Positions 10,931 to 64,000 of a stretch of DNA of 64,000 nt are shown piece after piece; the first letter of the stretch is position 1, and every line of letters begins with the position of its first letter. The position numbers and the translations under genes were made by a program. Source of the DNA: Burkholderiales bacterium (GTDB lineage: Bacteria > Pseudomonadota > Gammaproteobacteria > Burkholderiales > SG8-39); NCBI GenBank assembly GCA_023383795.1, contig JAHDYJ010000012.1, positions 5,307 to 69,306 of the forward strand. Reading direction: 5' to 3'. A model generated the notes under the pieces. It was given only the letters and a program-made list of their open reading frames with translations. It was not told where the DNA came from and searched no databases.

Positions 10931-14377
<3,447 letters not shown>

Positions 14378-14468: not shown

Positions 14469-14643
14469 CCTTCGCAATCACTCTGCGTGGGCGTCACACC
14501 TTGCGCAGAGGGAAGTGGGCACGCGCGCGGCCGGCAGAGCGGCGCCGGCGTCCCAAGGGGGAGCCACCGGGAATCCGGCCGCGCAAACCCCCGGGCAGAA
14601 GAGGCCCAGGTCGTCGGTCGGAGCCGGCCGAGGAGCACGAACG

Positions 14644-17600
14644 ATGACCACTCCGAATGCCGCGCAGCTCGCCGCGTTCTGCGTCGACGTCTACGACGCC
14701 GCAACCGATGTCGGTCGCGAGATCCCCACGGGATTCGTAAGACTCACCGGGTTCTCCGGCGAGAACGGTGACGGCGGACTGTTCGCCGCGGCCTACCTCG
14801 ACACCGAGACCGGGCAGCTCGTGCTCGCGTTCCGCGCCGACGATGCGCTGCGCGATCTCTTCACCAACCTGTCGTTCGTGACGAGCACCGGCGACACGCT
14901 GTTCAATCGCGCGCTCGCCCTGGTGGACGAGGCGCGCAAGCTCGCGGCCGAGCGCTACGGCGTCGCCCCGCCCGACGCCGCGGTGACGCTCACCGGACAC
15001 GGCGTCGGCGGCGGCTTCGCATCGCTCGTCTCGGTCGCGACCGGACTGCAGGCGGCCACGTTCAACGGGGTGGGCATCAGCGGGCTCCTGTCGGCATTCG
15101 AGGAGCGCTTCGGACCGCTCGCGCCGGACTTCGCGAGCCGCATCTCGAACTACGTCGCGCAGGGTGACGAGACCTATGCGCTGCCGCGCGGGACGTCGCA
15201 AGTCGGACAGGTGATTGACGTCCAGACGTCAACGCTGTCGTTTTTCGGACAGCTGTCGACCGCGGTCGGGGCCGACATGCAGGGCCAGCAGCTGCTCGAC
15301 GCGATCTACGACTGGCTCGGCACCGGCAGCGCGGACCGCCGCAACGCGCAGCGCGTGCTGATGGCCCTCGAGCTGCAGTTCGGCGCCGTGACGGGCGACG
15401 CCGCGGCGACCGACGCGCAGAAGGCCGAGCTGAACGGCAGGTTGAACGAGCTGCTGCAGACCGACTCGGCCGACCGCATCGCCGCGCGCAAGTTCGATCG
15501 CGTGATGATCGACGGCTCGGACGCAGGACAAGCGCAAGACGCGGGCGGCTACGGTGCGAGCAACGATCTCATCGTTGGCGCGTCCGGCGCGGACACGCTC
15601 CACGGCGGCGCCGGCGACGACATGCTCCTCGGCGGCGACGGCAACGACATCCTGGCGGGCGGCGCCGGGGCAGACGAGCTCCACGGCGGCAAGGGCTCGG
15701 ACGTCTACCGCTTCGCGAGCGCCGACGGGACGAACGTCCTGCGCGACGCGCAGGGCACGAACCGGGTGATCGTCGACGGCGTGCCCGTCGCCGGCTTCTT
15801 CTACGGCGACGGCTCGGGCATCTGGCGCAGTGCCGATGGCAGGCTGACCCTGACGGACACCGAGACGGGCGCCACGCTCGCGACCGCCTCCGGTCTCACG
15901 CTCGAGCTGGACGGATTCGCCGAGGGCCAATTCGGCCTGCTGCGCGTGGCCGGGTTCCTCGATCCCGCATCGCTCCCGCGGATCGCGGGCGATCTCGTCG
16001 GCGCGAGCGGCGACGAGCTGGTTGGCTCGGCCGGCGCGGAGCTCATCGAGGCCGGCGAGGGCGACGACTACGTCATGGCCGGTGCCGGAGACGACGTGGC
16101 CGCGGGCGGCACGGGGAGCGACGTGCTCGCAGGCGGCGACGGCAGCGACCGGCTGGCGGCGGACAAGTGGGTCTCGACCGAGGAGGCGCTGGCGAATCCC
16201 GCGCCGGGCGCGAGCGGCGCCGGCGACTGGCTGGCCGGCGGGGAGGGCGACGACGTCCTCGTCGGCGGCGCGCGCGGCGACGTGCTCTCCGGCGGCGGCG
16301 GGCGCGACCTGCTGATCGGCGGCGGCGGCGGCGACTTCCTGCTGGGCGACGCGGACTACCTGCCCGCCGAGACGCAATGGACCTTCGCCGTCGGCGCGGA
16401 CGGCCGCTCCAACTACTACTCCTGGAGCGATCCCGAGTCGAACGATCCCGCCGCGAGCGCAGCCGATCTGATGTTCGGCGGCGACGGGAACGACTGGATG
16501 GCGGGCGGCCGCGGCGACGACACGCTCTTCGGCGGTGCCGGCGACGACGAGCTGATCGGTAACGCAGGCGCCGACACGCTGTTCGGCGGCGCCGGCAGAG
16601 ACCGCCTGTACGGCGGCGAGCGCGCGCGCGGTGCGGCGCTCGACTTCAGCGACGACTACCTCGACGGCGGCGACGACGACGACATGCTCGCCGGCTCGGC
16701 CGGGAACAACTTCCTTCTCGGCGGCGGCGGCAACGACGAGATCCGCGCCGGCGCCGGCGAGAACCTGATCGAAGGCGGCGACGGCGACGACACCATCTCG
16801 GCCACCGGCCGCGACGTCGTCTACGGGGGCGCGGGCAACGATTTCATCGTGACCTTCGGCATCGGCGATGCGCGCCTCGACGGCGGCGAGGGCGACGACC
16901 GGCTGTTCGGCGAGCAGGGCAACGACACGCTCGCCGGCGGTGCCGGCGACGACCGGCTCTACGGCGGCGAGGGCGACGACCTGCTCGACGGCGGCGTCGG
17001 CGACGATCGCTACGTGTTCGACGCGGGCAGCGGCGTCGACGCGATCACCGACGCGTCCGGCTTCGACGTGATCGAGCTCCGCTCGATCGAGGGTGCGGGC
17101 GCCACCGACTATACGATCGCGCGCGACGGCATCCGCCTCGTCGCCGACAACACCGAGATTCGCCTCGAGTACGGCGCGCTCGGCGACCGCATCCTGCTCG
17201 GCCGCGATCCGCGCGGCGTGATCGAGCAGGTCGACCTGACGCGCTTCGCCGGCGGCACCGTGACGACCGAGTCGATCGCGTTGACCGACTTGCCGGTGGT
17301 GTACGCGGGAACCGACGACAGCGAGATCCTGTTCGGGGTCGAGGGATTCCGCAACGTCGTGAGCGGCGGCGGCGGCAACGACATCGTCGTCGGGGCGAGC
17401 GGCGCCGACGTGATCGCGGGCGGCGCCGGGCTCGACGTCCTGCGCGGCGGCGACGGCGGCGACACCTATGTCTTCGGCATCGGCGACGGCCTGGACACGA
17501 TCGACGACACCGGCGCTGGCGGCGTCGACGTGCTCTCGCTCGGCATCGCGCTCGACGCCGCGACGCTCACGCTCGCCGGCGGCCTGCTCTTCCTGGACAT

Positions 17601-20319
17601 CGGCGGCGGCGAGGGCGTGAAGCTCGCCGGCTTCCACCGCCTTGACGCCTACGGCAGCGTGTCGGTCGAACGCTTCGAGTTCGGCGGCGGCGTCGGGCTG
17701 TCGGCCGGCGAGCTGATCGATCGCGGCTTCGATCTGCGCGGAACTACGGCCGCCGAGAGCGTCTCGGGCACCAACGCGGTCGACCGTTTCCACGCCTCGG
17801 CGGGCGACGACCGCCTGGCCGGCGGCGGGGGTGACGACGTCTACGAGTTCGGACGGGGCTCCGGCAAGGACTTCATCTCCGACCTCGATCTCACCCCCGG
17901 CAACTTCGACCGCGTGGTCCTGCGCGACGGCATCACGCCCGACGACCTCCAGGTGTCCGCCGAGGCGGACCGCCTGACGCTTCGCTTGAGCGACGCCGAC
18001 CAGCTCTCGATCCAGTGGCTCCCGGCCGCGGGCTACCAGATCGAGTCGATCGCTTTCGGCGACGGCACCCTCTGGGATCTGCCCGTCCTGCAGGGCTTCT
18101 TCCAGGCGTCGAACCGTCCGCCCGGGTTGCTCGCGCCGATCGGCGACCAGACCGCGCTCGAGGACGCGCCGTTCGTGTTCCAGGTGCCGGCGGGAACTTT
18201 CGAGGATCCTGACGGCGACGGCACTCTCGCGTACTCGGCCAGCCTCGAGGACGGCAGCAGCCTGCCGGCGTGGCTCGCCTTCGATGGCGCCACGGGCACG
18301 TTCTCCGGCACGCCCCTCAACGCGGACGTCGGGTCGATCGGCGTCACGGTGACCGCCGCCGACGGCTCGGGCGAGCGCGTCGCCGACACCTTCGCGATCG
18401 ACGTCCAGAACGTCAACGATGCGCCGGCGCTCGCCGCGCCGCTCGGCGTGCTGAACGTCGCCGAGGACAGTGCCCTCGACTTTGCGATCCCGGCGGGGAC
18501 GTTCGTCGACGTCGACCGCGATGACGCGCTTCGCTACGTCGCCGCGCTCGAGAACGGCGCCGCGCTGCCCGACTGGCTGCACTTCGACGCGGCGGCCGGG
18601 ACGCTGCGCGGCACCCCCGGAAACTCCGAGGTCGGCAGCTACCGGGTCCGCGTCGCTGCGCTCGACGCGGCCGGCGCGTACGCCGAGGACGTGCTGGCGC
18701 TCAACGTGTTGAACGTGAACGACGCGCCGACCCTCGCGGCGCCGCTCGCGGACGCGATCGTCAAGGAGTCGCATCCGCTCGACCTGCTGATCGACGCGGG
18801 CGCGTTCGTCGACGTCGATCCGGGCGACGCGCTCGAGTACGCCCTCACGCTCTCGAGCGGTGACGCGCTGCCCGAGTGGCTCACGTTCGACGGCGCGGAG
18901 CTCTGGCTGGGCGGAACGCCCGGGCGCGCGGACATCGGCACGCTGGAGCTGCGCCTCACCGCGACCGACGGCGCGGGCGCGTCGGTCTACGACGATTTCC
19001 TGGTGACCGTCGCGGCGGTTCCCGGCCAGGTGCTGATCGGCACCAATGCCGACGACGACCTCTTCGGCGACGCCGGCGACGACACGCTGGCCGGCCGAGG
19101 CGGGCGCGACTTGCTCGCCGGCAGCGCCGGCGACGACACGTTCGCCTTCGCGCGCGACGCGACCTGGAGCGGCACCGCGCGGCGCGAGCACCCGGACACC
19201 GGCGAGCGCGTCGGCCTCGCCGGCCGCGGGCGGAGCTACGACGTGTTCGACGGCGGCGCCGGATCGGACGCGTTGCTCGGCACCGGTCGCGCGGACGCGA
19301 TCCTGCGCTTCGATCCGTCGGACCTGCCGGGCGCCGCCGAGCGCATCACCGGCATCGAGCGGATCGACGCCGGCGGCGGCAGCGACATCGTCGATCTGAC
19401 GGGGCCGACCTCATACGGGCCGGTGACGGTGCTCGGCGGCGCCGGGCACGACGTCATCTGGTCGAGCGACGGCGACGACCTGCTCTACGGCGGCAGCGGG
19501 ATGGACCGCATCGACGGCGGCGGCGGCAACGATTACATCGCAGGCGGCAGCGGCGGCGACGTGCTCTCCGGCGGAAGCGGCAACGACATCCTCGAGGGCG
19601 ACAGCGGGATCGACTGGCTGTACGACTACGAGGGCAGCAACGTGCTGTGGGGGCGCGGCGGCGCGGACAGCCTGTACGACGGCGGGGGCAACGCCCTGCT
19701 CGTCGGCGGCGCCGGCGTCGACCGCATCACGCTCGGCGGCGGCCGCGACGTCATCGCGTTCAACCGCGGCGACGGCCGCGACGTGGTGCGCGGCAGCGGC
19801 ACGGCGACGCTCTCGCTCGGCGGCGGCATCCGCTACGAGGACCTCGCGCTGCGCAAGCGCTTCGACGACCTGATCGTGGAGACCGGCGGCGGCGAGCGGA
19901 TCACGTTCCAGGGCTGGTACGCCGACCCGCTCGCGCAGAGCGTGCTCGACATGCAGGTGATCACGCAGGTGATGCAGGGGGGCGGGCCGGGCAGCGATGC
20001 GGTGCTCGGCGACCAGCCGGTCGAGGCGTTCGACTTCCGCGCGATCGTCGCCGCGTTCGACGAGGCGAGGGCGATGAGCAGAAACCTCGTGCGCTGGGAG
20101 ATGCTGGACGCGCTCGCGCGCGCCGAGCCGCGCGGCTTCGACAACCTTGCGGCGGGCGGCGATCTCGCCTATCAGTACGGCCTGAGCGGGACGCTCGCCG
20201 GCATCGGCGTCGGCGCCGCGCAGGCGGTGCTGAGCGACTCGCGGTTCGGCAGCGGGCCGCAGCCGCTCTCGGGCCTCGACGCGCTGACGGCCGGGACGGC
20301 GAAGCTCGGCGGGGGTTGA
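14644..20319 (+). CDS. Large RTX (hemolysin-type Ca-binding) T1SS substrate with an N-terminal lipase-like domain and three putative Ig/cadherin-like domains
   Basis: Many GGxGxDxL nonapeptides; three ...LPxWLxFD...GTP...NVNDAP-type units; N-terminal LVLAFR...VTLTGHGVGGG; RBS GAGGAG upstream of ATG 14644; no signal peptide. Confidence 0.92.
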   Translation: MTTPNAAQLAAFCVDVYDAATDVGREIPTGFVRLTGFSGENGDGGLFAAAYLDTETGQLVLAFRADDALRDLFTNLSFVTSTGDTLFNRALALVDEARKLAAERYGVAPPDAAVTLTGHGVGGGFASLVSVATGLQAATFNGVGISGLLSAFEERFGPLAPDFASRISNYVAQGDETYALPRGTSQVGQVIDVQTSTLSFFGQLSTAVGADMQGQQLLDAIYDWLGTGSADRRNAQRVLMALELQFGAVTGDAAATDAQKAELNGRLNELLQTDSADRIAARKFDRVMIDGSDAGQAQDAGGYGASNDLIVGASGADTLHGGAGDDMLLGGDGNDILAGGAGADELHGGKGSDVYRFASADGTNVLRDAQGTNRVIVDGVPVAGFFYGDGSGIWRSADGRLTLTDTETGATLATASGLTLELDGFAEGQFGLLRVAGFLDPASLPRIAGDLVGASGDELVGSAGAELIEAGEGDDYVMAGAGDDVAAGGTGSDVLAGGDGSDRLAADKWVSTEEALANPAPGASGAGDWLAGGEGDDVLVGGARGDVLSGGGGRDLLIGGGGGDFLLGDADYLPAETQWTFAVGADGRSNYYSWSDPESNDPAASAADLMFGGDGNDWMAGGRGDDTLFGGAGDDELIGNAGADTLFGGAGRDRLYGGERARGAALDFSDDYLDGGDDDDMLAGSAGNNFLLGGGGNDEIRAGAGENLIEGGDGDDTISATGRDVVYGGAGNDFIVTFGIGDARLDGGEGDDRLFGEQGNDTLAGGAGDDRLYGGEGDDLLDGGVGDDRYVFDAGSGVDAITDASGFDVIELRSIEGAGATDYTIARDGIRLVADNTEIRLEYGALGDRILLGRDPRGVIEQVDLTRFAGGTVTTESIALTDLPVVYAGTDDSEILFGVEGFRNVVSGGGGNDIVVGASGADVIAGGAGLDVLRGGDGGDTYVFGIGDGLDTIDDTGAGGVDVLSLGIALDAATLTLAGGLLFLDIGGGEGVKLAGFHRLDAYGSVSVERFEFGGGVGLSAGELIDRGFDLRGTTAAESVSGTNAVDRFHASAGDDRLAGGGGDDVYEFGRGSGKDFISDLDLTPGNFDRVVLRDGITPDDLQVSAEADRLTLRLSDADQLSIQWLPAAGYQIESIAFGDGTLWDLPVLQGFFQASNRPPGLLAPIGDQTALEDAPFVFQVPAGTFEDPDGDGTLAYSASLEDGSSLPAWLAFDGATGTFSGTPLNADVGSIGVTVTAADGSGERVADTFAIDVQNVNDAPALAAPLGVLNVAEDSALDFAIPAGTFVDVDRDDALRYVAALENGAALPDWLHFDAAAGTLRGTPGNSEVGSYRVRVAALDAAGAYAEDVLALNVLNVNDAPTLAAPLADAIVKESHPLDLLIDAGAFVDVDPGDALEYALTLSSGDALPEWLTFDGAELWLGGTPGRADIGTLELRLTATDGAGASVYDDFLVTVAAVPGQVLIGTNADDDLFGDAGDDTLAGRGGRDLLAGSAGDDTFAFARDATWSGTARREHPDTGERVGLAGRGRSYDVFDGGAGSDALLGTGRADAILRFDPSDLPGAAERITGIERIDAGGGSDIVDLTGPTSYGPVTVLGGAGHDVIWSSDGDDLLYGGSGMDRIDGGGGNDYIAGGSGGDVLSGGSGNDILEGDSGIDWLYDYEGSNVLWGRGGADSLYDGGGNALLVGGAGVDRITLGGGRDVIAFNRGDGRDVVRGSGTATLSLGGGIRYEDLALRKRFDDLIVETGGGERITFQGWYADPLAQSVLDMQVITQVMQGGGPGSDAVLGDQPVEAFDFRAIVAAFDEARAMSRNLVRWEMLDALARAEPRGFDNLAAGGDLAYQYGLSGTLAGIGVGAAQAVLSDSRFGSGPQPLSGLDALTAGTAKLGGG

Positions 20320-53610: not shown

Positions 53611-53626
53611 TGGCCTGAAAGGTGCA
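53611..53626 (+). promoter_or_regulatory. Putative sigma-54 promoter of the PEP-CTERM gene
   Basis: TGGCCTGAAAGGTGCA has GG-N10-GC spacing; PEP-CTERM genes are commonly sigma-54/PrsR controlled. Confidence 0.5.
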
Positions 53627-53699
53627 TGCCCCCTGGCGCTTGGCCTTGCAAAGGTTGTTGCACGGCAGTTCTCTCGACACTTTCTGGGAGGCGACGGCG

Positions 53700-54542
53700 A
53701 TGAAGCGGAAGCTGACGCGTATTGCGCTTGCGGCGCTCGGATCGGCGGGCCTCCTGTGGTCGGCAGCCGCGTCCTCGGCCCTGATCACCTCGTTCACGGC
53801 GAGCGGTACGGTGGGCGCCACGGTAGCCGCCTATCCGACGGCCTTCTCGGCCGGTGCGGGGACGCTGACGGTCAGCGGCATCCCGGCCGGCGCGAGCATC
53901 CTGCAGGCCTACCTCTACGCGAACAACTACTTCGGTACGCCGGACGCGTCCGCTACGTTTGACGGAAACGCCCTCGGCGCGGTTGCGCCGTTCGCGACCG
54001 ACGGCGGGTTCTCCGCCTATCGCTGGGACGTCACCGGCCTGGTGACCGGCGACGGCGCCTATTCGGCGAGCTACAGCGGCCCGACCAACACGTACGGTCT
54101 CGCGCTCGCGGTCGCGTTCAGCCACCCGAGCCTGCCGGTCTCGACCGTGTGCATCAACGACGGCGCCGTCGACATCGATGGCCCCGAGACCGCCAGCACC
54201 TCCTGCGCCGGCATGGCCGCGGGGAGCGGGACGCTGTGGATCCATACCGCGGCCGACAATGCCCTTGGTGAGTCGGGCGAAGAGATCCGCTACAACGGCG
54301 CCGTGGTCGGTGGTCCGATCGACGCAAATCTCGGGGACTTCGCCAGCCTGTTCGAGCTCGCGGTCACGAACCTGGACGGCCTGAACACGGCGGAGATCTT
54401 CTCCCCGGCCGACCAGTTCGGGTGGGACCTCGCGGTGTTTGCCGGGCCGGCTGGCGAGACGGGAGTGCCGGAGCCCGGTTCGCTCGCGCTGCTCGGCCTC
54501 GGCCTGGCGGCCTTCGCGCTCGCGCGTCGCAGGAAGTCCTGA
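53700..54542 (+). CDS. PEP-CTERM sorting-domain surface protein (DUF3344-like body)
   Basis: Signal peptide; C-terminus VPEPGSLALLGLGLAAFALARRRKS. Confidence 0.93.
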   Translation: MKRKLTRIALAALGSAGLLWSAAASSALITSFTASGTVGATVAAYPTAFSAGAGTLTVSGIPAGASILQAYLYANNYFGTPDASATFDGNALGAVAPFATDGGFSAYRWDVTGLVTGDGAYSASYSGPTNTYGLALAVAFSHPSLPVSTVCINDGAVDIDGPETASTSCAGMAAGSGTLWIHTAADNALGESGEEIRYNGAVVGGPIDANLGDFASLFELAVTNLDGLNTAEIFSPADQFGWDLAVFAGPAGETGVPEPGSLALLGLGLAAFALARRRKS

Positions 54543-56459: not shown

Positions 56460-56504
56460 TGGCTCCCCGACCAGGGCTCGAACCTGGGACCTGCGGATTA
56501 ACAG
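56460..56504 (-). mobile_element. att site: 3' half of tRNA-Asn(GTT), 45 bp
   Basis: Minus strand CTGTTAATCCGCAGGTCCCAGGTTCGAGCCCTGGTCGGGGAGCCA = anticodon loop, T arm and CCA; the 5' half is absent. Confidence 0.9.
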
Positions 56505-56669: not shown

Positions 56670-56695
56670 TGGCCCAGCGCGCTAGCCCAGCGCGC
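56670..56695. repeat. 13-bp tandem direct repeat, candidate integrase arm-type sites
   Basis: TGGCCCAGCGCGC / TAGCCCAGCGCGC, ~170 bp inside the att site. Confidence 0.5.
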
Positions 56696-56856
56696 AGTGG
56701 CGCCAGATACGCAAGGCGGTACGCGTGAATTCGGCGAGGATCAGATGTCCGCGACCCGCACCGTCGGGGTGGCGCTCACGGATGAGCCGCACTTGCGCTC
56801 GAGCGCGCCGCTCCATCGCCGCCGCGTCGCCCGGGCGGTCGGTCGGCATGCCGGCC

Positions 56857-56943
56857 TCACGACCTCGTCGGCGATGGCGTCGGCGCCGAGCTCGCGCCCA
56901 GGGCGAGCCGATTCGGAAAGCGCTCCCCGGAATTCGCCGTCAT
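56857..56943 (-). pseudogene. 28-codon remnant resembling the N-terminus of a DUF2460 distal-tail protein
   Basis: ATGA-coupled to the tape measure stop; MTANSGERFPNRLALGASSAP resembles the recalled DUF2460 start pattern RFP-x-x-I/L-A/S-x-G-A/S-x-G-G-P. Confidence 0.4.
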
Positions 56944-59003
56944 GCGTTGTGCCTGAGCGCGCTCTGGATCGCGAGCCCGACCTCGGCGCCGGTCTGCTTG
57001 GCGCTTGCTCCGGTCGTGCCGCCTGGCACGGTGACGTTGATAACGATCGAGTGTCCGCCGCGGCCGCGCCCGGCCGGAGTGATCGTCACGCGCTCGCCTG
57101 GGGCGGCGCTGATCGGCACCAGGCGCTCGGCCGAGCCTGTCCCGGGCACGGTGAACGCGCCGCCGTGCTGGAAGGGCCCGAAGACGCCGCTCGCGAGCAC
57201 CTGGTCGATCGCAAGGCCGCCGGCGCCGCCGCCCAGGCCGAACAGTTTGAGGAAATCGAAGTTTCCGCCGGCGATCTCTTTCGCCGTCTTCGAGGCGAAC
57301 CCGCCGAGCGGCTCCGTCACGAATGCGCGCGTCCCGATCCTGCGCAGATCCTTTTCGAGCGCGTTGAGGACATCGCGCAGGTTCTCGCCCTCGACGACGG
57401 CATCCTCGAAGGCGCTCGAGAAGACGGGCCCCAGCTCCTGCCAGGCGTCGCGCAGATCGTCGGACTCATCGGTGATCCGGCGGAGCTCCTCGTCGAGCTC
57501 GGCCATTGCCTCGCGCGCCTTGACGGCGTTCGCGCCGCCGCGCTCGAGCTCGCCCGCCATCAGGGCGAATTGGCGTCGGTTCTCCTCGATGCGCCCGGTG
57601 CGCGTCGAGGCGAGCAGCCCCTCGATCGCGCGGGCGCGGTCCTGCGCGGCCTGGATCTCGCGCTGGGCGAGGTCCTCGGCCGCCTGCGTCGCCTCCTCCT
57701 TGAGCCGGGTGTCCTCCTTGTAGAGATCGATCTTCGCTGCAACCGCGACGAGCTCGTCCTTCTGCGCGGCGGTGACTTTCAGGGTGCCGAGCTCGTACTG
57801 ACCGAGAATCTCGAGCACCCGGGAGCCCTCCGCGCTCTGCCGGTTCAGCTCCGAATTGAGCGAGGCGAGGGTGCGCTGGAAATCGTCGGCCTCCTTGCGG
57901 GCCGATGCCGTGCGCGTCTTGAGCGCGGCCGGAAGGTCGGGCGCGCGGGCGAGCGGGCCGCTCGGTCCGGCGGGAGTCGCTTGTGCGAGCGTCTCCCGCG
58001 CCTTCATGAGCCGCTCGATTTCGGCTTTCTCCTCACGGATTTTGCCGAGTCGGAATTCGATCACCTTCGTCGCGTTCTCGTCGCTCGTCAGGAACCGGGC
58101 GATGGCGCCGCGCTGTGGTACCTGCTCGAGCTCCTTCAGCAGCTGCTGCTCCTCCTGCACGAGCTCGTGGAAGCGCCCGAGATTGACGTTTCCGGAGAAC
58201 GCGAGCTTGAAATTCTCGCTAAAGGTGAGCGCCGAGCGGCCGGCGCCGAGGAAGGCGCTGGTGAGCTCGCTCAAGCCGAGTAGGAGCGGCCTACTGAGCT
58301 GGAGCTTGAGTCCCTCGAGCCGCTGCCCGAGCCGGGTTAGGTCGTCATTGAATTGCTCGGCCGCACGCGCGGTCTGCGTGTCGATGACGATGCCGAGGCG
58401 CTCGGCCTCGGCGCGCATCGCCTCCAGCCCATTCGCGCCCTGGTTCAGGAGCGGGATCAGATCAGCGCCGGCGCGGCCGAAGAGCCGGGTCGCGATTGCC
58501 GTCTTGCCGGCGCCATCCTCCATCTTCTGGAACCGGTCGGCCACCTCGGCGAGGATCGTGTCGGAGCCCTTGAGCACCCCTTGGGCATCCTTGACTGAGA
58601 TCCCGAGTGCCGCGAAGGCATCCTTCGCCTCCCCGGTGCCCTTCGCCGTGTCGAGCATGTTCACCGAGAGCCGTACGAGCGCTGTCTCGAGGTTCTCCGC
58701 CGAGACGCCGGAGAGATCCGCGGCGAAGCGGAGCGCACTGAAGGCCTCCGTGGTGACTCCGGCCCGCTGCGCCGCCTTGCCTGTCTCGTCGGCGAGGTTC
58801 GCGACCCCACGCGCAGCGGCCACCAGGCTCCCGGCGCCGAGCACGCCCACGAAGCCCGCGAGTGCGGTGCGCGCCGCACCAAAGCTGCCAGCCAGGCCCT
58901 TCGAGCGCTTCTCGAGCCCCTCCAGCCCGCGCGTGACCGACGCGAACGCGCCCCGTGTATCGTCGGTGGCGGTGATGCGAAAGTTCGGGTCGCGGGTCGC
59001 CAT
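56940..59003 (-). CDS. Phage tail tape measure protein
   Basis: RITATDDTRGAFASV N-terminus; helical repeats FAALGISV, LFGRAGADLIPLLN, AEQFNDDL; C-terminus FQHGG...PGERVTITP...IVINV. Confidence 0.85.
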   Translation of the reverse strand: MATRDPNFRITATDDTRGAFASVTRGLEGLEKRSKGLAGSFGAARTALAGFVGVLGAGSLVAAARGVANLADETGKAAQRAGVTTEAFSALRFAADLSGVSAENLETALVRLSVNMLDTAKGTGEAKDAFAALGISVKDAQGVLKGSDTILAEVADRFQKMEDGAGKTAIATRLFGRAGADLIPLLNQGANGLEAMRAEAERLGIVIDTQTARAAEQFNDDLTRLGQRLEGLKLQLSRPLLLGLSELTSAFLGAGRSALTFSENFKLAFSGNVNLGRFHELVQEEQQLLKELEQVPQRGAIARFLTSDENATKVIEFRLGKIREEKAEIERLMKARETLAQATPAGPSGPLARAPDLPAALKTRTASARKEADDFQRTLASLNSELNRQSAEGSRVLEILGQYELGTLKVTAAQKDELVAVAAKIDLYKEDTRLKEEATQAAEDLAQREIQAAQDRARAIEGLLASTRTGRIEENRRQFALMAGELERGGANAVKAREAMAELDEELRRITDESDDLRDAWQELGPVFSSAFEDAVVEGENLRDVLNALEKDLRRIGTRAFVTEPLGGFASKTAKEIAGGNFDFLKLFGLGGGAGGLAIDQVLASGVFGPFQHGGAFTVPGTGSAERLVPISAAPGERVTITPAGRGRGGHSIVINVTVPGGTTGASAKQTGAEVGLAIQSALRHNA

Positions 59004-59006: not shown

Positions 59007-59204
59007 TCATCCCTCACAGCCGCTTCCGCCGGTCGTGGCGCGCCGCCGGCGCACGGCCTTGCCCGCCCAGGCCGCGAGCCGATCGGCTGCGCGGCATCGC
59101 GGGCACGTCCTCTCGTTGCCGGTCGGTCGGAAATTCATGCGGCAAGCCTCGCAGCCGACGATCGGGAGCTCGGCGGGCGGCGGCCGTTCCGGCGGCTTAC
59201 GCAT
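59007..59204 (-). CDS. Small zinc-ribbon protein (CxxC...CxxC)
   Basis: CEAC...CPRC; start overlaps the upstream ORF stop; ends 3 bp before the tape measure start. Confidence 0.5.
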   Translation of the reverse strand: MRKPPERPPPAELPIVGCEACRMNFRPTGNERTCPRCRAADRLAAWAGKAVRRRRATTGGSGCEG

Positions 59205-59412
59205 CGGCCGCGAGATTGTCCAACGCCGCACGCAGCGCCGGCGGCACCCAGAGGTCCACGCGGTCGGGATCGACTTCGCCGCGGCGCACGGCCCGCTCAA
59301 GCTCGAGCCGGAAAACGTTGCAAGCTACTTCGCGGGCGAGCCAGGTGCAGTGGCGATTGAGGCGACGACGGACCGCGCGCGGCAGTTGGTTGCCATGCAT
59401 GTAGTTCAGCAT
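59197..59412 (-). CDS. Small hypothetical protein with LPRAVRRR..RHCTW motif (copy 2)
   Basis: MLNYMHGNQLPRAVRRRLNRHCTWLAR; tightly packed between neighbours. Confidence 0.55.
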   Translation of the reverse strand: MLNYMHGNQLPRAVRRRLNRHCTWLAREVACNVFRLELERAVRRGEVDPDRVDLWVPPALRAALDNLAADA

Positions 59413-59582
59413 CCGGCGACGCCCGCGGCCGCCCACGGGGGAAGGAATAAGCCCACAACGGCCGCGGACGCGCCGGATTCCGTTAATGCCCGATCAGCGC
59501 GACGCGCGATCCACGTGCAGTGTCGAGCAGCTCGGCGACGGACCGCGCGGGGGAGGTGTGGCTGCGGACACACACTCGGCAT
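59406..59582 (-). CDS. Small hypothetical protein with LPRAVRRR..RHCTW motif (copy 1)
   Basis: MPSVCPQPHLPRAVRRRAARHCTWIAR; starts 17 bp after the capsid stop. Confidence 0.5.
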   Translation of the reverse strand: MPSVCPQPHLPRAVRRRAARHCTWIARRADRALTESGASAAVVGLFLPPWAAAGVAGC

Positions 59583-59599: not shown

Positions 59600-61612
59600 C
59601 TAGTTGCCGATCAGTCCCACGAGCGGGCCGGCGGTCGTCGCGTCGCCGATGTCGTGCACGAGCGCGTGGAAGCGCTCGGTCGCTTTGATCCCGATCTGAT
59701 CGAATTCGGCGTAGCGCTCGGTGAGGATCTGCAGCCGGATATCGCGCCGCAGGCCGAGCTTCGAGGCGAGGCGCAAGTTCCCGAACGCGATCATCACTTG
59801 GCCGGAGTAGTCCGTCGTCGCGCCGGCCGGCAGCACCGGCGACGTGTAGACAGGGAAGCCACCGTAAGCTTTGGGGATGTCCCCGGCGAGATCGGACACC
59901 GCGTTCCCGGCAAGCCCCTGCAGGATCCGGAAGAACGTCAGGCCCCAGGCGCGGTGTGAACAGTAAAAACCGGCGCCGTCGTACGCGACCTCGGGCAGGG
60001 CGGCCACTAGCGCTGCAAGATCCGCGGCGTCGATCTCGGCGAACGTATCGTGGTTGGCGCCGGCGAGCACCTGGCCGCCGTCGTGGCTGCCATCCACCAG
60101 GAGGTGAAACACGCCGCGCATGCCGCCGTACGTGGAGGTCGCGTCGCCCAAGAAGCCGCACTCATCTTCTTTCTTCGCGAACGCGCGGCCGATCTGGAAG
60201 GCCACCCGATCCGCGATCGCGATCGGCGAGTCGTCCATCAGTTCCGTCGGCACGCGGACGAGCGAGGCCGCCTTGCGCGCGACGAGATTGACGGTTTCCC
60301 ACGCGCCTTCGCTGTCGGGGATTTCGGCGCTCTCCTCGACGAAGTTCACTTCCGGATCGGAGGCCGACCGCGGGACGGTTAGGGTGTCCGTGTTCATCGG
60401 CCATACGTCGGAGCGCATGCGGAACACGCCGTGCGAGTCGGCGAGGTCGATGATTGTTGCCGACAACTGATCGGGCACGAGCGCACCGCCCTGGCTGAGA
60501 ATCTGTCCGCTCATGGCCCGGACTTCCAGGCCGTTGGCGCCACACCAGGCGATAGCGCCCCGATCGCCGTAGAGCGCGCGGAGCCACTGCCCCGCAGCGA
60601 ATGCGCGCGCCTGCGCGTCCGGGCCCTTGAAGTGCTTCGGAAGGGGAAGCTGCTCGCGCGCGCCGGCGCCGTAGCTCGACGTGACGTACGCGGGCTCGGC
60701 GGTGTTCAGCGGCGGCGTGCCGAGCGAGAGCCGCCCCAGCATGCGCTGACGGAACATCTCGACCGTTCCGCTCGGTTCGGCAGCGACCGCGGCGGCGATC
60801 TCCGGCCCGCCACGGCCGACGAATTCATTTCCGGCGCGCAGGATGTCTGCCACGCGCTGCCGCTCGCGCGCGGCGCTGTCGTCGAACTCGCGCGCCTCGA
60901 GCTCACCGCCGGCGCGCAGGATCCGGCGCTCGCGCCGGCTGAGATTGCCGGCGTCGCCGGCGTCGTCGTGGATCGTCATGGGAATAAATCCTTTCGCATG
61001 CGAAAAAAGTTGGCGACCGACGCCGACTGAGGGATCGGCCGGCACCGAGACAAGCGAGCCCTCCAGCGGCTCCCAGTCGATGACGCGGTACGTGGATACG
61101 CCCTCCTCCTGCCTCTCGAGGACGAGGTCGTGGATCAGGTAGCCCACCGATGCATTCGTGCGGATGCCGTCGAGCACATCGCGCCAGATCTCCTCGGCGC
61201 GCGCGGAACGGCCGAACCGCGCGGTGACCTGCAGCTTTCTGTCGGACGTGACTTCCCAGCGCTCCCCCACGCCCACGTGATCGCGGGCATCGTGGCCGAC
61301 CAGAAGCGGGAAGCCGGCCTCGAGCCGCATGTCGCGGATCGAGCCCCGGCCATGATCGAGGATCTCGAAGCCCCACCAGCGCTCATAGCTGGCTTCGCTC
61401 GAGATCGAAAGGGTGACGGTGCGCGCCTCTTCGTCGATCGCCCCGCGATCGAGCCGGAGGAAGCGCTCCTGGCGCTTGCCGCGCAGCGCGGCGATGCGCG
61501 CCTCCGGCTGGAGGGCGAGGAACTTCCGATGCCGCGCTGCGACCGCACGCACCTGCTCGACGGCGCCCGATGTGCCGGCGGCGCTCCATTCCATCTCGAA
61601 GTCAATGGTCAC
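59600..61612 (-). CDS. HK97-type prohead protease fused to scaffold and major capsid protein
   Basis: Protease motifs PLLVGHD, ASVGY, EGSLVSVPAD; capsid motifs GGALVP, FVEESAEIP, VPTELMDDS, FAKKEDECGFLGD, FGNL, ATERF; GTG start inferred. Confidence 0.88.
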   Translation of the reverse strand: MTIDFEMEWSAAGTSGAVEQVRAVAARHRKFLALQPEARIAALRGKRQERFLRLDRGAIDEEARTVTLSISSEASYERWWGFEILDHGRGSIRDMRLEAGFPLLVGHDARDHVGVGERWEVTSDRKLQVTARFGRSARAEEIWRDVLDGIRTNASVGYLIHDLVLERQEEGVSTYRVIDWEPLEGSLVSVPADPSVGVGRQLFSHAKGFIPMTIHDDAGDAGNLSRRERRILRAGGELEAREFDDSAARERQRVADILRAGNEFVGRGGPEIAAAVAAEPSGTVEMFRQRMLGRLSLGTPPLNTAEPAYVTSSYGAGAREQLPLPKHFKGPDAQARAFAAGQWLRALYGDRGAIAWCGANGLEVRAMSGQILSQGGALVPDQLSATIIDLADSHGVFRMRSDVWPMNTDTLTVPRSASDPEVNFVEESAEIPDSEGAWETVNLVARKAASLVRVPTELMDDSPIAIADRVAFQIGRAFAKKEDECGFLGDATSTYGGMRGVFHLLVDGSHDGGQVLAGANHDTFAEIDAADLAALVAALPEVAYDGAGFYCSHRAWGLTFFRILQGLAGNAVSDLAGDIPKAYGGFPVYTSPVLPAGATTDYSGQVMIAFGNLRLASKLGLRRDIRLQILTERYAEFDQIGIKATERFHALVHDIGDATTAGPLVGLIGN

Positions 61613-61800
61613 GGCCCGTCCCGCTTCACCACGGCGCCGCGCAAATAAGAAAGCCGGCGCCGACAACGTCGATCCCGCTGCGCGGGTCCACTGTCGCCGG
61701 CGGCCGGCTGGCCGCTTCGTCTCGAGGCTCGCATGGCCGCGGGTTCGTGCGCCTGGCGGCGCGCCCCATTTCAGCCGAGAATCTCGGCAGAGACGCGGCA

Positions 61801-61829
61801 ATCTTGCCACCGCGCAGGATCCTTGGCAA
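61801..61829 (-). promoter_or_regulatory. Candidate sigma-70 promoter for the capsid-tape measure operon
   Basis: Minus strand TTGCCA-N17-CAAGAT; CTTGCCA/TGGCAAG inverted repeat overlaps both hexamers. Confidence 0.4.
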
Positions 61830-61849: not shown

Positions 61850-62140
61850 TCAATTTGCGCGCTGTGCACGCTCGGCGCGCTCGGCGCGCTCGACGTCAAT
61901 CGCGCCCAAGGTTGCCGCCAGTGCGTTCAGCCGGCTGGGCAGGATGCGCGTCCAGTTGTCAGCGTCAATCGGGCTGTCGGTTTTCCAGCGGACGAGCTCG
62001 TCGCGGCGGGCGATGCCAACGGCGCCCGCCGCGTTGTGCCCGCAATGGACGTGCACAAGGTCAAGGTCGTCGTTCAGCGGCCGGCGCATGGCGCCGGCCA
62101 AGCACTCTTGGCAAATCGTCGTCGGCCCGTTCACTTCCAC
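61850..62140 (-). CDS. Hypothetical protein with CxxC...HxHC
   Basis: AGGAG RBS; ICQECL...HVHCGH; lies between terS and the capsid gene. Confidence 0.6.
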   Translation of the reverse strand: MEVNGPTTICQECLAGAMRRPLNDDLDLVHVHCGHNAAGAVGIARRDELVRWKTDSPIDADNWTRILPSRLNALAATLGAIDVERAERAERAQRAN

Positions 62141-62153: not shown

Positions 62154-62660
62154 CTAAGGCTGCTCCAGTGCCGCGGCGAGCGCGGTCAGCGCACGCCGGA
62201 CCTCATGCTCGAGGAGGCGTTGCGCCGCTGGCGGATCCGCCGGCGCAACGATCGCGGCGACGCGAGCCGGAAGCGCCAGCATCGCGTCGGCAACCATCCG
62301 GGCGGTCTCCTGCTGGCTCCGGCGCACGTCGTCGGCGTCTACGAGCCGCCCGGCGCGGCGGGCGAGCTCGAGCTCTTGGCGGTCCGCCTGCGCACGCAGC
62401 AGCCGTTTCCGGTCCGGGTCGTCGGCGCCGCGGCGCGCGACTTCACGAGCGAGCCACCATTGAACCGCGGCACCGGCGTCGTATAGCCGGTGCCGGCCAC
62501 GGTCGCCGAGGCATGGGAGCCCTTCGCCTTCCCAGGCGACAATCGATGCGGCCGACACGCCAAGTACGCGGGCGAGCTGCCGCTGCGTGAGCTCGACCGC
62601 GCCATCAGCCTCCACGATTGCCGCTGAATCCTCAGAGGGAGGCTTAACTTCAGCGCTCAT
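62154..62660 (-). CDS. Terminase small subunit, lambda Nu1-like (PICI Rpp-like)
   Basis: Winged HTH LTQRQLARVLGVSAASIVAWEGEGLP...YDAGAAVQWW; coiled coil RKRLLRAQADRQELE..GRLV; LALPARVA. Confidence 0.82.
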   Translation of the reverse strand: MSAEVKPPSEDSAAIVEADGAVELTQRQLARVLGVSAASIVAWEGEGLPCLGDRGRHRLYDAGAAVQWWLAREVARRGADDPDRKRLLRAQADRQELELARRAGRLVDADDVRRSQQETARMVADAMLALPARVAAIVAPADPPAAQRLLEHEVRRALTALAAALEQP

Positions 62661-62684
62661 GTTCCTCACCTTCTAGCGCTTTTT

Positions 62685-62743: not shown

Positions 62744-62905
62744 GAACCTTGCGAACCTTCGTGAACCCTTCTGAACGCGTGCGTAGAAAAGTCTCCACAT
62801 CACCAACCGCTTTTATTTCCCACTAGAGGGTTCGATAGGTTCGGTAGGTTCAGATGCAGATCTGGCGCGGCGATCGAGCCGAACCACCCCCGAACCTACC
62901 GAACC
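62744..62905. repeat. GAACC iterons in both orientations (putative replication origin)
   Basis: GAACC at 62744/62753/62763, GGTTC at 62829/62838/62847, GAACC at 62881/62892/62901; 9-11-bp spacing, at the 3' end of the VapE gene. Confidence 0.65.
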
Positions 62906-64000
62906 CTCTTCCGCTGGCGCTTCCCACACGCGCCGCCGCAAGGCGCCGACTTGGCGCCGGGCCCAGCCAAGGCGCCGCAGGATTGCTCCGGCCCGGAGCT
63001 GCGCGCGCCGATCCTGGCGGGCGGCCTCGAGGCCCACGGCCGCGCGTAGCAGCTCCCCGATCTCTACTTGTCGGAGCTGCGCGACGTGCATCGCGACGCG
63101 GTCTTCCCACGGATCACCCTCGTAACGCTGCTCCTGGGCGGCCGCGGCCTCGCCCGCGGGCACCTCCCACCACGGCTCGCGCAGCTCGCGGACGCGATGC
63201 AGCGCTTCGGCGAAGAGTTGCTCGCGATTGGCGCCAATCCAGTCAAGATCGATCGCACCGCAGCGCACCGGCCAGAAGCGCCGCGCGCCAGTCGCGTCGC
63301 GCAGGTAGTGCGATTCGTTAGTCGTGCCGACCATGACCGAGGTACGCGGCAGCTCGAGCGTGCGCCGGCCATAGGGCGGGCGGAAGTTGTCGACGCGGCG
63401 CGACGCGAAAGCCTTGATGGTTTCGGGCTCGCGTCGATTGAGCGCCTCGAGCTCGGGCAGCTCCACAATCAGGCGGCCGTGGAGCTCGAGGATCGCGTCC
63501 TTGCTGCCGAGTGGACTTAAGATCTCGCCGTACCAGTCGCCGCCGAGCGTCTCAAGCGCCTGGCTCTTCAGCCGGCCCTGCCCCGATTCGAGCACGACGA
63601 TGTGGTCATGCTTGCAGCCTGGCCAGATCAGGCGCGCTGCCGCAGCCTTCAGGAGGTTGGCGCCGATCGCGATCGCGTACGCCGTATCGTCGCCCCCGAA
63701 CGCGCGTGACACGAGCAGATCCGCACGACTCACGCCGTCCCAGCGAAGACCGAGCAACCACGAGAGTGGCTCGCAGCGCTCGTGCTCATGGGCGACGAGT
63801 TCGACGCCCTGGCGCACAGGGTCGATTCCGATACGCGGCAGGCCGACCTCGGTTTGCAGCAGCCGCAGTAGGCGCAGCTCATCAACATCGCGCCAGTCCC
63901 GCGGTGTGGCGTCGTGATCGACACGCACCCGCTGGTAGAAGCGGTCGAAGTAGAGCGCGCCCTTGTAATCCGGATGGAAATCCAGCACGCGCGCGACGTT
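62813..64000 (-). CDS. VapE (virulence-associated E) primase-helicase, 5' truncated by window edge
   Basis: LRWDGVSR, PGCKHD, Walker A GQGRLKS, ELPEL, RPPYGR, GTTN..YLRDATGARRFWPV, REQLFAEA. Confidence 0.92.
   Translation of the reverse strand, partial: NVARVLDFHPDYKGALYFDRFYQRVRVDHDATPRDWRDVDELRLLRLLQTEVGLPRIGIDPVRQGVELVAHEHERCEPLSWLLGLRWDGVSRADLLVSRAFGGDDTAYAIAIGANLLKAAAARLIWPGCKHDHIVVLESGQGRLKSQALETLGGDWYGEILSPLGSKDAILELHGRLIVELPELEALNRREPETIKAFASRRVDNFRPPYGRRTLELPRTSVMVGTTNESHYLRDATGARRFWPVRCGAIDLDWIGANREQLFAEALHRVRELREPWWEVPAGEAAAAQEQRYEGDPWEDRVAMHVAQLRQVEIGELLRAAVGLEAARQDRRAQLRAGAILRRLGWARRQVGALRRRVWEAPAEEGSVGSGVVRLDRRARSASEPTEPIEPSSGK

What the first reader, a model, noticed from the sequence alone, without database searches (positions are those of the whole stretch)
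56940..59003. Stand-alone 687-aa tape measure protein: tail hijacking or tail interference?
Seen: a full-length TMP with typical N- and C-termini, but no tail tube or tail-assembly chaperone genes upstream. Known: TMP sets tail length (roughly 0.15 nm per residue, so ~100 nm here) and takes part in DNA injection. Inference: it may replace the helper TMP to give satellite-specific tails or escape superinfection exclusion, or act as a dominant-negative blocker of helper tail assembly.
Basis: partly seen in the sequence, partly recalled or inferred. Interest (0 to 1): 0.85.

Follow-up and report, generated by a model that had tools for sequence, protein, structure and literature searches.

The report
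Phage satellite carrying its own tape measure
The 687-residue tape measure gene is real and is the last gene of a small island, inserted at a tRNA-Asn gene, that looks like a phage satellite carrying its own capsid protein, small terminase and tape measure, a kind of satellite described only recently.

Summary
Window 56940-59003 (minus strand) encodes an intact 687-aa tape measure protein (TMP). No tail tube or tail chaperone gene was found upstream.

It is not isolated, though. It ends a compact island on the minus strand: VapE replicase, Nu1-type small terminase, 96-aa ORF, 736-aa protease-capsid fusion, two small ORFs, then the TMP. A 45-nt tRNA-Asn 3' half (attR, 56460-56504) follows. The integrase end is lost at the contig end.

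A syntenic relative (L256) has the same order and the same tRNA-Asn att. Four other compact elements place a TMP 18-143 nt after the capsid gene. In ordinary siphoviruses the gap was 2.5 kb or more.

Capsid genes group the satellites together. Each satellite TMP instead pairs with the TMP of a canonical phage; the window's partner is L089, at 45% over the full length. The C-terminal half of the small terminase also matches L089's. A sister element (L279) has no TMP.

Best reading (0.6): a satellite of an L089-like siphovirus whose TMP, taken from the helper's tail module, replaces the helper TMP in satellite particles. This has been shown for Vibrio PLEs and proposed for EPIPs. Altered tail length is not supported (687 versus 693-696 aa). 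I rate it a new variant of a known kind.

The parts
56460..56504 (-). attR: 45-nt 3' half of tRNA-Asn(GUU), from the anticodon loop to CCA. This is the left boundary of the island.
   Evidence: Read directly. The same 3' half, with compensatory T-stem changes, lies just after the TMP-side end of relative L256. Synteny with same-genus genome G002 stops at about window 56477. Exact contigs of two other metagenome runs start at 56475. ARAGORN finds no whole tRNA in the window and no tRNA-Asn in the assembly.
56682..56849 (-). Possible 55-aa ORF between the TMP and attR. It is doubtful as a gene.
   Evidence: ORF list. No Pfam or PHROG hit.
56940..59003 (-). Tape measure protein, 687 aa (P0001): the finding.
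   Evidence: Nearest relative is the TMP of the canonical siphovirus contig L089, 45% identity, 473 bits.
59007..59204 (-). 65-aa ORF with CxxC...CxxC (zinc-ribbon-like). Its ATG overlaps the stop of the ORF before it, and its stop lies 3 nt before the TMP ATG. Function unknown.
   Evidence: Translation. The enclosing 97-aa ORF has no Pfam or PHROG hit.
59197..59436 (-). 71-79-aa ORF just after the capsid gene. It is conserved in sister element L279. Function unknown.
   Evidence: tblastn to L279 at the same position gives 34% over 59 aa, E 9e-5. No family. The protein atlas gave no usable hit.
59600..61810 (-). Head maturation protease fused to an HK97-fold major capsid protein (736-aa ORF; the true start is uncertain and homology begins near residue 100).
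   Evidence: PHROG 617, 4523, 10 and 80. Pfam PF05065 at residues 441-714. 40% identity over 661 aa to L256 and 56% to L279.
61850..62140 (-). 96-aa Cys-containing ORF between the small terminase and the capsid gene. It is conserved at the same position in L279 and L256. Function unknown.
   Evidence: tblastn: L279 E 1e-6, L256 E 3e-3. No family. The atlas gave nothing above chance level.
62154..62669 (-). Small terminase subunit, Nu1 type (171 aa).
   Evidence: PF07471 at 1.7e-11 and phrog_57 at 1.6e-27. The N-terminal half matches L256's TerS. The C-terminal half (residues 87-170) is 46% identical to the TerS of the L089 phage record.
62813..64000 (-). VapE-type replicase/helicase. The gene runs 78 nt past the window end (421 aa from MRAPAQ...).
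   Evidence: PF05272 at 5e-63 and phrog_256. Start read. 48% identical to the L256 homologue.

Best explanation
The TMP is a working gene of an integrated phage satellite, probably about 10-11 kb by comparison with L256. The satellite sits at the 3' end of a tRNA-Asn gene. SHOWN: the gene order VapE, Nu1-type TerS, 96-aa ORF, protease-capsid fusion, two small ORFs, TMP, attR; no large terminase, portal, connector, tail tube or chaperone in the visible part or in the relative L256; the same compact capsid-then-TMP layout in other, unrelated elements. INFERRED MECHANISM: a lambda-like siphovirus of the L089/L091 type acts as helper. After induction the island excises and replicates using VapE. 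Its TerS pairs a satellite-type DNA-binding half with a helper-like C-terminal half. This would recruit the helper's GpA-type large terminase to satellite DNA. Its own protease-capsid protein would build satellite heads on the helper portal. Its TMP would be threaded into tails made from the helper's chaperone, tube and tip proteins, in place of the helper TMP. The TMP cassette appears to have been acquired from, or exchanged with, the helper's tail module, which would keep it compatible. The result would be chimeric tails of about the helper's length. The benefit is not known. Candidates are efficient satellite DNA delivery, insensitivity to factors aimed at the helper TMP, or entry into cells that exclude the helper.
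For: TMP identity.

Island context.

Boundary: tRNA-Asn 3' half, shared with L256, and the synteny break against G002.

Mobile: the TMP was absent from 6 of 6 same-genus genomes searched and present in 6 of 61 genomes overall, counting the window's own.

Syntenic relative L256: integrase, 3 small ORFs, VapE 48%, TerS 41%, o96-like ORF, protease-capsid 40%, 122-aa ORF, phrog_32 tail assembly protein, TMP, 91-aa ORF, att.

Bimodal capsid-to-TMP gap. It is 18-854 nt in six places: WIN 597, L121 18, L002 63, L003 133, L096 143, L256 854. It is 2492-9335 nt in all other loci where both genes were found: 33 loci, 10, 5.

Other compact elements carry an integrase and a replication gene, and one also a TerS, but no portal, large terminase or tail tube among the ORFs scanned.

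TMP tree (43 rows): each of the 6 compact TMPs pairs with a canonical-phage TMP. Supports are WIN-L089 100, L003-L120 96, L096-L094 97, L256-L091 95 and L002-L135 87; L121 sits in a supported six-row group whose other five members are canonical. The 'compact' label needs 6 changes for 6 rows.

Capsid tree (39 rows): the compact label needs only 2 changes for 5 rows, and 0 of 500 shuffles were as low. WIN+L256 pair at 89 and L002+L003 at 92.

BLASTP. TMP: WIN-L089 473 bits, WIN-L256 92, L256-L091 325. Capsid: WIN-L256 407 bits, L089-L091 996 (75%), WIN-L089 protease domain only.

L089 is a full siphovirus: portal, protease-capsid, head closure, tail terminator, major tail, chaperone, TMP, tail assembly protein, J-like protein. 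L089 and L091 share head genes at 74-75% but tail genes at only 29-42%.

The TerS C-terminal half matches the TerS of the L089 record (46%, E 4.7e-18), which lies next to a GpA-type large terminase.

Precedent: PLE TMPs are incorporated into PLE virions, and the helper TMP is excluded (PMC12987554, passages read). EPIP satellites carry TerS, capsid and TMP genes (PMC12822802, passages read).
Against: No tail chaperone is encoded, and PLEs carry one beside their TMP.

The closest capsid relative, L279 (56%), has no TMP at all. The TMP is therefore dispensable for this lineage and sits where satellites often carry accessory cargo.

No helper is visible in this assembly. There is no second capsid, TMP or portal hit, no large terminase over cut-off, and no L089-like tail gene. 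The assembly has 234 contigs and only 35 tRNAs, so this is weak evidence.

Identity to the nearest phage TMP is only 45% and is very uneven, 6-24% across residues 251-350. Compatibility with an L089-like tail is therefore not assured.

The integrase end and attL are missing (contig end), so completeness and mobility of this copy are not shown.

There is no evidence of expression or of particles.
Confidence: 0.6

Rival explanations
1. Interference cargo. The satellite TMP is a decoy that poisons helper tail assembly (dominant negative) or otherwise defends the host. It is not a structural part of satellite particles.
For: It occupies the att-distal end of the island, and in sister element L279 other unrelated genes sit there instead. 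It is dispensable in that lineage. No chaperone is encoded. A decoy would also have to match the helper's tail module, so the TMP/helper pairing fits this reading too. Satellites that block tail assembly are known: Rta of PLE11 (PMC12987554, passages read) and Tai systems (PMC11364771, abstract seen in the search listing).
Against: The protein is full-length and collinear with a functional phage TMP. It keeps the conserved N- and C-terminal blocks and about the same length. A decoy would not need all of these. In the one tested system the satellite TMP is incorporated. A satellite that needs helper tails would harm itself unless its own particles were spared.
Confidence: 0.2
2. Decaying prophage remnant. 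Deletions removed the tail and packaging genes, and the TMP is a leftover with no current role.
For: The TMP's nearest relative lies in a complete phage. The integrase end is not visible. No helper is seen in the assembly.
Against: All ORFs are intact and tightly coupled. The same gene order and att type occur in L256 at only 40-48% protein identity, which implies long retention. The same capsid-then-TMP adjacency occurs in elements with other replication and integration genes. No gap between 854 and 2492 nt was seen. The capsid and TMP genes have different histories, which simple deletion from one phage cannot produce.
Confidence: 0.1
3. Assembly artefact. The contig joins a phage fragment to chromosome by mistake.
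For: The genome is a 234-contig draft with 4.19% contamination, and the island reaches a contig end.
Against: Words of the 8-kb stretch are held by 20 runs from 11 studies. Exact contigs from three further studies tile the island. The junction is a biologically sensible tRNA att shared with L256.
Confidence: 0.03

Closest known systems
EPIPs (Extracellular Prophage-Inducing Particles) of Mycolicibacterium aichiense; preprint PMC12822802, passages read
   Same: A satellite that carries a small terminase, a major capsid protein and a TMP but lacks tail proteins. The TMP is thought to take part in hijacking the helper's tail.
   Different: EPIPs have a serine integrase, a scaffolding protein, and head-to-tail adaptor and stopper genes. 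They occur in Actinobacteria and have tails longer and more variable than the helper's. The element here has VapE and a protease-capsid fusion, no adaptor or stopper was found, it integrates at a tRNA (relative L256 has a phrog_1 integrase), and its TMP length equals that of the nearest phage relatives. No sequence comparison with EPIPs was possible because no EPIP sequence was held.
PLEs of Vibrio cholerae; Nature 2026, PMC12987554, and preprint PMC11838301, passages read
   Same: The satellite encodes its own TMP, homologous to but diverged from the helper's. The PLE TMP is incorporated into satellite virions and the helper TMP is excluded (chimeric tails). That paper also notes putative tmp genes in other satellites, including some cf-PICIs (legend of Extended Data Fig. 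10; the figure was not seen).
   Different: PLEs parasitise a contractile-tailed lytic phage. They also encode a tail chaperone, and some a baseplate hub. They use the helper's capsid protein. Here the presumed helper is a siphovirus, no chaperone was found, and the satellite brings its own capsid protein.
Capsid-forming PICIs (cf-PICIs), as defined in the introduction of PMC10690885, citing Alqurainy et al. 2023 (that paper itself was not read)
   Same: An integrated island with its own capsid protein, protease and small terminase that depends on a helper for tails.
   Different: cf-PICIs encode the full head and packaging set: portal, head-tail connectors, large terminase and HNH. None of these was found here or in L256, and a TMP is not part of their definition.
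Classical proteobacterial PICIs / SaPI-type satellites (recalled knowledge)
   Same: Size class, tRNA-type att, a replicase of the primase/VapE kind, and redirection of packaging through a small terminase.
   Different: Classical PICIs remodel helper capsids with small proteins. They do not encode a full capsid protein, and they carry no TMP.

Membership tests
Phage tail tape measure protein | Match to curated TMP profiles | tested here: met
   PF10145 at 38.6 bits, over the 33.2 cut-off. Seventeen PHROG families annotated as TMP, the best at 2.3e-52.
Phage tail tape measure protein | Full-length collinearity with a TMP that sits between the tail chaperone and the tail-tip genes of a tailed phage | tested here: met
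   45% identity over residues 2-687 to the TMP of L089. L089 has major tail protein, chaperone, TMP, tail assembly protein and a J-like protein in that order.
Phage tail tape measure protein | Own-locus context: preceded by tail tube and frameshifted chaperone genes, followed by distal tail genes | tested here: not met
   Only two small unassigned ORFs lie between the capsid gene and the TMP, and attR follows.
Phage satellite (PICI-like integrative element) | Integrated with att repeats at a defined site, with an integrase at one end | tested here: inconclusive
   attR (tRNA-Asn 3' half) is present. attL and the integrase are beyond the contig end. Relative L256 has the integrase.
Phage satellite (PICI-like integrative element) | Own replication gene, and lack of the genes needed to make a complete virion | tested here: met
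   VapE is present. No large terminase, portal, connector, tail tube or lysis family hit in any ORF scanned here or in L256.
Phage satellite (PICI-like integrative element) | Helper-dependent induction, packaging and transfer | not testable with these tools
   Needs experiments. The only indirect hint is that the TMP and the TerS C-terminal half are homologous to those of L089-type phages.
cf-PICI | Major capsid protein, protease and small terminase | tested here: met
cf-PICI | Portal, head-tail connectors, large terminase and HNH encoded by the island | tested here: not met
   None in the visible 7.9 kb, where all coding space is accounted for. None in L256. Whole-assembly searches for PF04860, PF03354 and PF03237 found nothing, and PF05876 gave only a sub-cut-off hit elsewhere.
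PLE-type chimeric-tail satellite | Satellite tmp accompanied by a satellite tail assembly chaperone | tested here: not met
   No chaperone family hit. L089's chaperone finds nothing in the assembly or in the compact loci by tblastn.
PLE-type chimeric-tail satellite | Satellite TMP incorporated into virions in place of the helper's | not testable with these tools
   Needs mass spectrometry or western blots of particles.
EPIP | TerS, major capsid protein and TMP together in one satellite | tested here: met
EPIP | Serine integrase, scaffolding protein, head-to-tail adaptor and stopper | tested here: not met
   None found. L256's integrase hits phrog_1 and phrog_216. I recall these as tyrosine-type integrase families; the tool output does not say so.

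The most novel reading that the evidence does not exclude
These loci define an unrecognised class of minimal 'capsid plus tape measure' satellites in Proteobacteria. They carry a replicase, TerS, protease-capsid and TMP, but no portal, large terminase, connector or chaperone. The capsid gene is inherited within the satellite lineage. The TMP is a swappable cassette, repeatedly captured from the tail module of whichever siphovirus currently serves as helper, and it is sometimes absent. If so, TMP replacement would be a general and evolutionarily labile way for satellites to control tail assembly or DNA entry, and a satellite's TMP could be used to predict its helper.
Probability: 0.4. Interest if true: 0.7.

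Novelty: new variant of a known kind. Interest (0 to 1): 0.55.

Why it matters
Satellite-encoded tape measures were shown experimentally only in 2025-26, for PLEs and EPIPs, and what they gain the satellite is still unknown. This locus and its relatives extend the idea to tRNA-integrated islands of GC-rich bacteria found in wastewater, sludge, bioreactor and biofilm metagenomes.

Three points are testable. First, the TMP follows the helper's tail module while the capsid gene follows the satellite lineage. Second, the TMP is present in some sister elements and absent in others. Third, the small terminase is a hybrid of a satellite-type and a helper-type half.

Together these give a sequence-based way to nominate helpers, here L089/L091-type phages. 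They also provide a natural presence/absence contrast for asking what a satellite gains from its own TMP.

Tried and rejected
1. Looking for the missing integrase end. The last 21-127 nt of the contig overlap no other contig. The att fragment has no second copy in the assembly. No tRNA-Asn is assembled. This led nowhere.

2. The first genome-contig scan, with the single TMP sequence, found no relative. It was repeated with alignment A1.

3. G/GT-type frameshifted chaperone in the 597-nt gap. The two small ORFs each have their own coupled start, the frame offset is not -1, and neither hits a family. I rejected the idea as unsupported. It is not excluded at the level of fold, because no structure prediction was run.

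4. Protein atlas searches on the 96-aa and 79-aa ORFs gave nothing above chance level.

5. The ProMCP search over 401 genomes of the order gave 16 genomes with a match (counting the window's own). These were mostly protease-domain matches in short loci. I did not follow them up and they tell nothing about architecture.

6. Contigs of four sequencing runs were laid on the stretch at 90% likeness. The joints and loose ends are numerous and have short sides (20-25 nt), which is typical of unrelated GC-rich sequence, so I take none as evidence of excision or an empty site. In the metatranscriptome run X18, exact contigs lie on 59927-60327, 60476-60989 and 62176-62469. No piece on the TMP was among those listed. 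DNA carry-over cannot be excluded, so this says nothing about expression.

7. No helper was found in the assembly. In a 234-contig draft this is not evidence of absence.

8. Host taxonomy was not determined.

9. Structure prediction, fold search, complex prediction and the search of solved structures were not used. The TMP's identity was already clear from profiles, and no binding claim rests on a model.

10. Supplementary files and figures were not seen. Extended Data Fig. 10 of PMC12987554 (gene maps of cf-PICIs with putative tmp genes) may already show elements like this one.

11. One search ('satellite', 'tape measure', 'vape', 'capsid') returned 0 papers.
Full report
THE OBSERVATION

The window is about 70% GC, so long spurious ORFs are common. 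The ORF at 56940..59003 on the minus strand nevertheless has the codon-position GC of a real gene (GC1 0.71, GC2 0.49, GC3 0.88). It translates to 687 aa. It passes Pfam PF10145 PhageMin_Tail (38.6 bits against a cut-off of 33.2). It hits 24 PHROG families, 17 of them annotated as tape measure, with the best at 2.3e-52.

In the 5.8-billion-protein collection it has 274 relatives at E <= 0.001 among the 8000 candidates scored. Three are full-length at 45-46% identity and are 696, 695 and 693 aa long. A 13-sequence alignment shows conserved N-terminal and C-terminal blocks around a variable coiled middle. So it is an intact TMP.

WHAT SURROUNDS IT

The gene is on the minus strand, so its upstream side is at higher coordinates. 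Reading from the right, the genes are:
- a VapE-type replicase, 62813 to 78 nt past the window end (PF05272 at 5e-63);
- a Nu1-type small terminase, 62154..62669 (PF07471, phrog_57);
- a 96-aa ORF, 61850..62140;
- a 736-aa ORF, 59600..61810, that fuses a head maturation protease to an HK97-fold major capsid protein (phrog_617, 4523, 10, 80; PF05065);
- two small translationally coupled ORFs in the 597-nt gap, one of 71-79 aa and one of 65 aa with CxxC...CxxC;
- the TMP.

None of these ORFs, nor any other ORF up to the contig end, hits a tail tube, chaperone, portal, connector or large terminase family.

Downstream of the TMP, at 56460-56504 on the same strand, lies the 3' half of a tRNA-Asn(GUU), running from the anticodon loop to CCA. 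ARAGORN finds no whole tRNA there. Beyond it come DUF3597 and DUF937 genes. Synteny with a genome of the same genus (G002) runs through these genes and stops at about 56477, inside the tRNA fragment.

The TMP is absent from 6 of 6 other genomes of the genus that were searched. The contig ends 372 nt beyond the window. The integrase side of the island and the intact tRNA are not in the assembly.

IS THE LAYOUT AN ACCIDENT?

I fetched loci around TMP relatives from species genomes and from IMG/VR. I located capsid genes with an iteratively built HMM. Among the 40 locus ids that hold both genes on one strand, the gap from capsid end to TMP start is bimodal. It is 18-675 nt in seven ids, which are five distinct places: WIN/L001, L121, L002, L003/L007 and L096. 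It is 2854-9335 nt in the other 33.

A capsid-based scan of IMG/VR added L256 with a gap of 854 nt. Ten other loci in that scan had gaps of 3115-7134 nt, and 68 loci showed no TMP hit in whatever downstream sequence they had, which was often short. A metagenome scan gave five further pairs, all with gaps of 2492 nt or more.

The compact loci are all small integrative elements:
- L121: integrase, replication initiator, TerS, 164-aa ORF, capsid, TMP, fibre-like protein.
- L170, which contains L003 (same family as the window's genome): D5-type primase/helicase, protease, capsid, TMP, integrase.
- L169, which contains L002 (same order): protease, capsid, TMP, then unrelated genes.
- L096: integrase, primase-like protein, 145-aa ORF, capsid (split into two ORFs), TMP, then a phage replication module.

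L256 is a true syntenic relative of the window's island. Its order is integrase (cut by the contig end), three small ORFs, VapE (48% identity), TerS (41%), an o96-like ORF, a 733-aa protease-capsid fusion (40%), a 122-aa ORF, a phrog_32 tail assembly protein, a 696-aa TMP and a 91-aa ORF. The same tRNA-Asn 3' half follows, with compensatory changes in the T stem.

Retention of this order at 40-48% identity, together with its recurrence alongside different replication and integration genes, argues against a random deletion remnant.

WHERE THE TMP CAME FROM

On a TMP tree of 43 rows (6 compact, 37 canonical), none of the compact TMPs group with each other. Five pair with a canonical-phage TMP: WIN-L089 (SH-aLRT 100), L003-L120 (96), L096-L094 (97), L256-L091 (95) and L002-L135 (87). 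L121 sits in a supported six-row group whose other five members are canonical. The 'compact' label needs 6 changes for 6 rows, as many as in shuffles.

On a capsid tree of 39 rows the compact rows do cluster. They need 2 changes for 5 rows, and 0 of 500 shuffles were as low. WIN+L256 pair at 89, and L121 and L189 join them in a group supported at 91. L002+L003 pair at 92. A clade of WIN, L256 and L121 alone has support of only 50. A FastTree run on 110 rows agrees but shows long branches meeting. L096 was left out of the capsid trees because its capsid gene is split. Duplicate loci L001, L007 and L258 were also left out.

Pairwise BLASTP gives the same picture.

| Pair | TMP | Capsid |
|---|---|---|
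| WIN-L089 | 473 bits (45%) | 98 bits, protease domain only |
| WIN-L256 | 92 bits (27%) | 407 bits (40%) |
| L256-L091 | 325 bits | 100 bits, protease domain only |
| L089-L091 | 158 bits | 996 bits (75%) |

L089 is a complete siphovirus morphogenesis region: portal, protease-capsid, head closure, tail terminator, major tail protein, chaperone, TMP, tail assembly protein and a J-like protein. L091 shares L089's head genes at 74-75% identity, but its tail terminator, tube, chaperone and TMP at only 29-42%.

So two sister satellites each carry a TMP that matches the tail module of one of two sister phages. Identity between the window's TMP and L089's is mosaic: 74-80% over residues 401-500 and 6-24% over residues 251-350.

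A SECOND LINK TO THE SAME PHAGES

The window's TerS is a hybrid. Its N-terminal half (residues 25-90, the part matched by the MerR/HTH profile) matches L256's TerS at 42%. Its C-terminal half (residues 87-170) matches the TerS of the L089 record at 46% (E 4.7e-18) and that of the L091 record at 38%. In the L089 record the TerS gene is followed by a large ORF that reads as a lambda gpA-type large terminase (that reading is mine, not a profile result).

From recalled knowledge of lambda Nu1, the N-terminal domain binds DNA and the C-terminal region binds gpA. That fits a satellite TerS which recognises satellite DNA but recruits the helper's large terminase.

THE TMP IS NOT UNIVERSAL IN THE LINEAGE

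L279 is the closest capsid relative found (56% identity). It has an AlpA-like ORF, a 435-aa ORF, a TerS-like ORF, an o96 homologue, a protease-capsid fusion and a homologue of the window's 79-aa ORF. It then has about 1.7 kb of unrelated small genes and an intact tRNA-Pro. No trace of a TMP was found, even at E = 10. The TMP is therefore an accessory, exchangeable module at the att-distal end.

HELPER AND EXPRESSION

The assembly holds no second HK97 capsid, TMP or PF04860 portal hit. It holds no PF03354 or PF03237 large terminase, and only a sub-cut-off, stop-containing PF05876 hit on another contig. tblastn found no L089-like portal, tube, chaperone or J-like gene. This is a 234-contig draft with only 35 tRNAs, so absence is weak evidence.

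Words of the island are held by 20 runs from 11 studies of wastewater, sludge, bioreactor and biofilm metagenomes dated 2019-2024. Two of the runs may be the source of this DNA. Exact contigs from three further studies tile the island. Nothing usable on expression or excision came from those contigs.

COMPARISON WITH WHAT IS KNOWN

PLEs of Vibrio cholerae encode their own TMP and tail chaperone, and some a baseplate hub. The PLE TMP is incorporated into PLE virions and the ICP1 TMP is excluded. Deleting tmp from PLE11 cuts transduction by about 99.9%. The authors also note putative tmp genes in other satellites, including a sampling of cf-PICIs (PMC12987554 and PMC11838301, passages read; figures not seen).

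EPIPs of Mycolicibacterium carry TerS, adaptor, stopper, serine integrase, scaffold, capsid and TMP genes, and have longer, variable tails (PMC12822802, passages read).

cf-PICIs are defined by a full head and packaging set that includes portal, connectors, large terminase and HNH (introduction of PMC10690885, passage read). This island lacks all of those.

So the idea that a satellite brings its own TMP is already in print. This gene set, this host group, the tRNA-Asn target and the evolutionary pattern did not turn up in my searches.

VERDICT

The tail-length idea is not supported, since 687 aa against 693-696 aa in the closest relatives predicts about 103 versus 104 nm. The choice between replacement and interference remains open.

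My estimates are: replacement giving chimeric tails 0.6; interference cargo 0.2; remnant 0.1; artefact 0.03. I rate it a new variant of a known kind, with interest 0.55.

Noticed in passing
window 59333-59388 and 59503-59558: A 56-nt direct repeat (75% identity, spacing 170 nt) in the capsid-TMP gap. One copy lies inside the 79-aa ORF and the other in the non-coding stretch after the capsid stop. It could be a duplication scar or a binding or packaging site.
   Followed up: no
window 62825-62844 / 62890-62909: A 20-nt inverted repeat, 95% complementary, with 45 nt between the arms. It lies inside the 3' end of the VapE gene, just upstream of the small terminase gene.
   Followed up: no
L279 (metagenome contig, 8065 nt), about 5700-7500: A sister satellite with a 56%-identical protease-capsid fusion and homologues of the 96-aa and 79-aa ORFs, but no TMP. 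Unrelated lower-GC small genes and an intact tRNA-Pro(GGG) occupy that end.
   Followed up: partly
L256 7183-7794: In the syntenic relative, a 203-aa phrog_32 'tail assembly protein' (E 6.6e-54) sits immediately upstream of the TMP. Some members therefore carry a second tail gene.
   Followed up: no
L096 9592-17809: A compact integrase, primase-like, capsid, TMP element is directly followed by a phage replication module (O-like initiator, DnaB helicase) and virion genes. This may be a satellite integrated in tandem with a prophage. Its capsid gene is split into two ORFs (5514-6353 and 6346-6885).
   Followed up: no
L089 versus L091 (IMG/VR contigs): Two phages share head genes at 74-75% identity but tail terminator, tube, chaperone and TMP at only 29-42%. 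This is a clean head/tail module swap.
   Followed up: partly
G002:C1, about 2296000-2315370 (L177): At the orthologous site the same-genus genome keeps only a 17-nt remnant of the tRNA 3' end. About 19 kb follows with no match of 300 nt or more (at E <= 1e-20) anywhere in the window's genome. This is probably a different island at the same hotspot.
   Followed up: no
window 53622-54542 (+): A 306-aa protein with a C-terminal PEP-CTERM sorting motif and a weak, below-cut-off DUF3344 match lies in the chromosomal flank.
   Followed up: no
L026 (Sulfuritalea MAG contig) 9998-18636: Here a 682-aa TMP is followed, not preceded, by VapE (35% identity) and TerS (32%) homologues and a 745-aa ORF. This could be two elements in tandem or a permuted order. 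It was not annotated.
   Followed up: no
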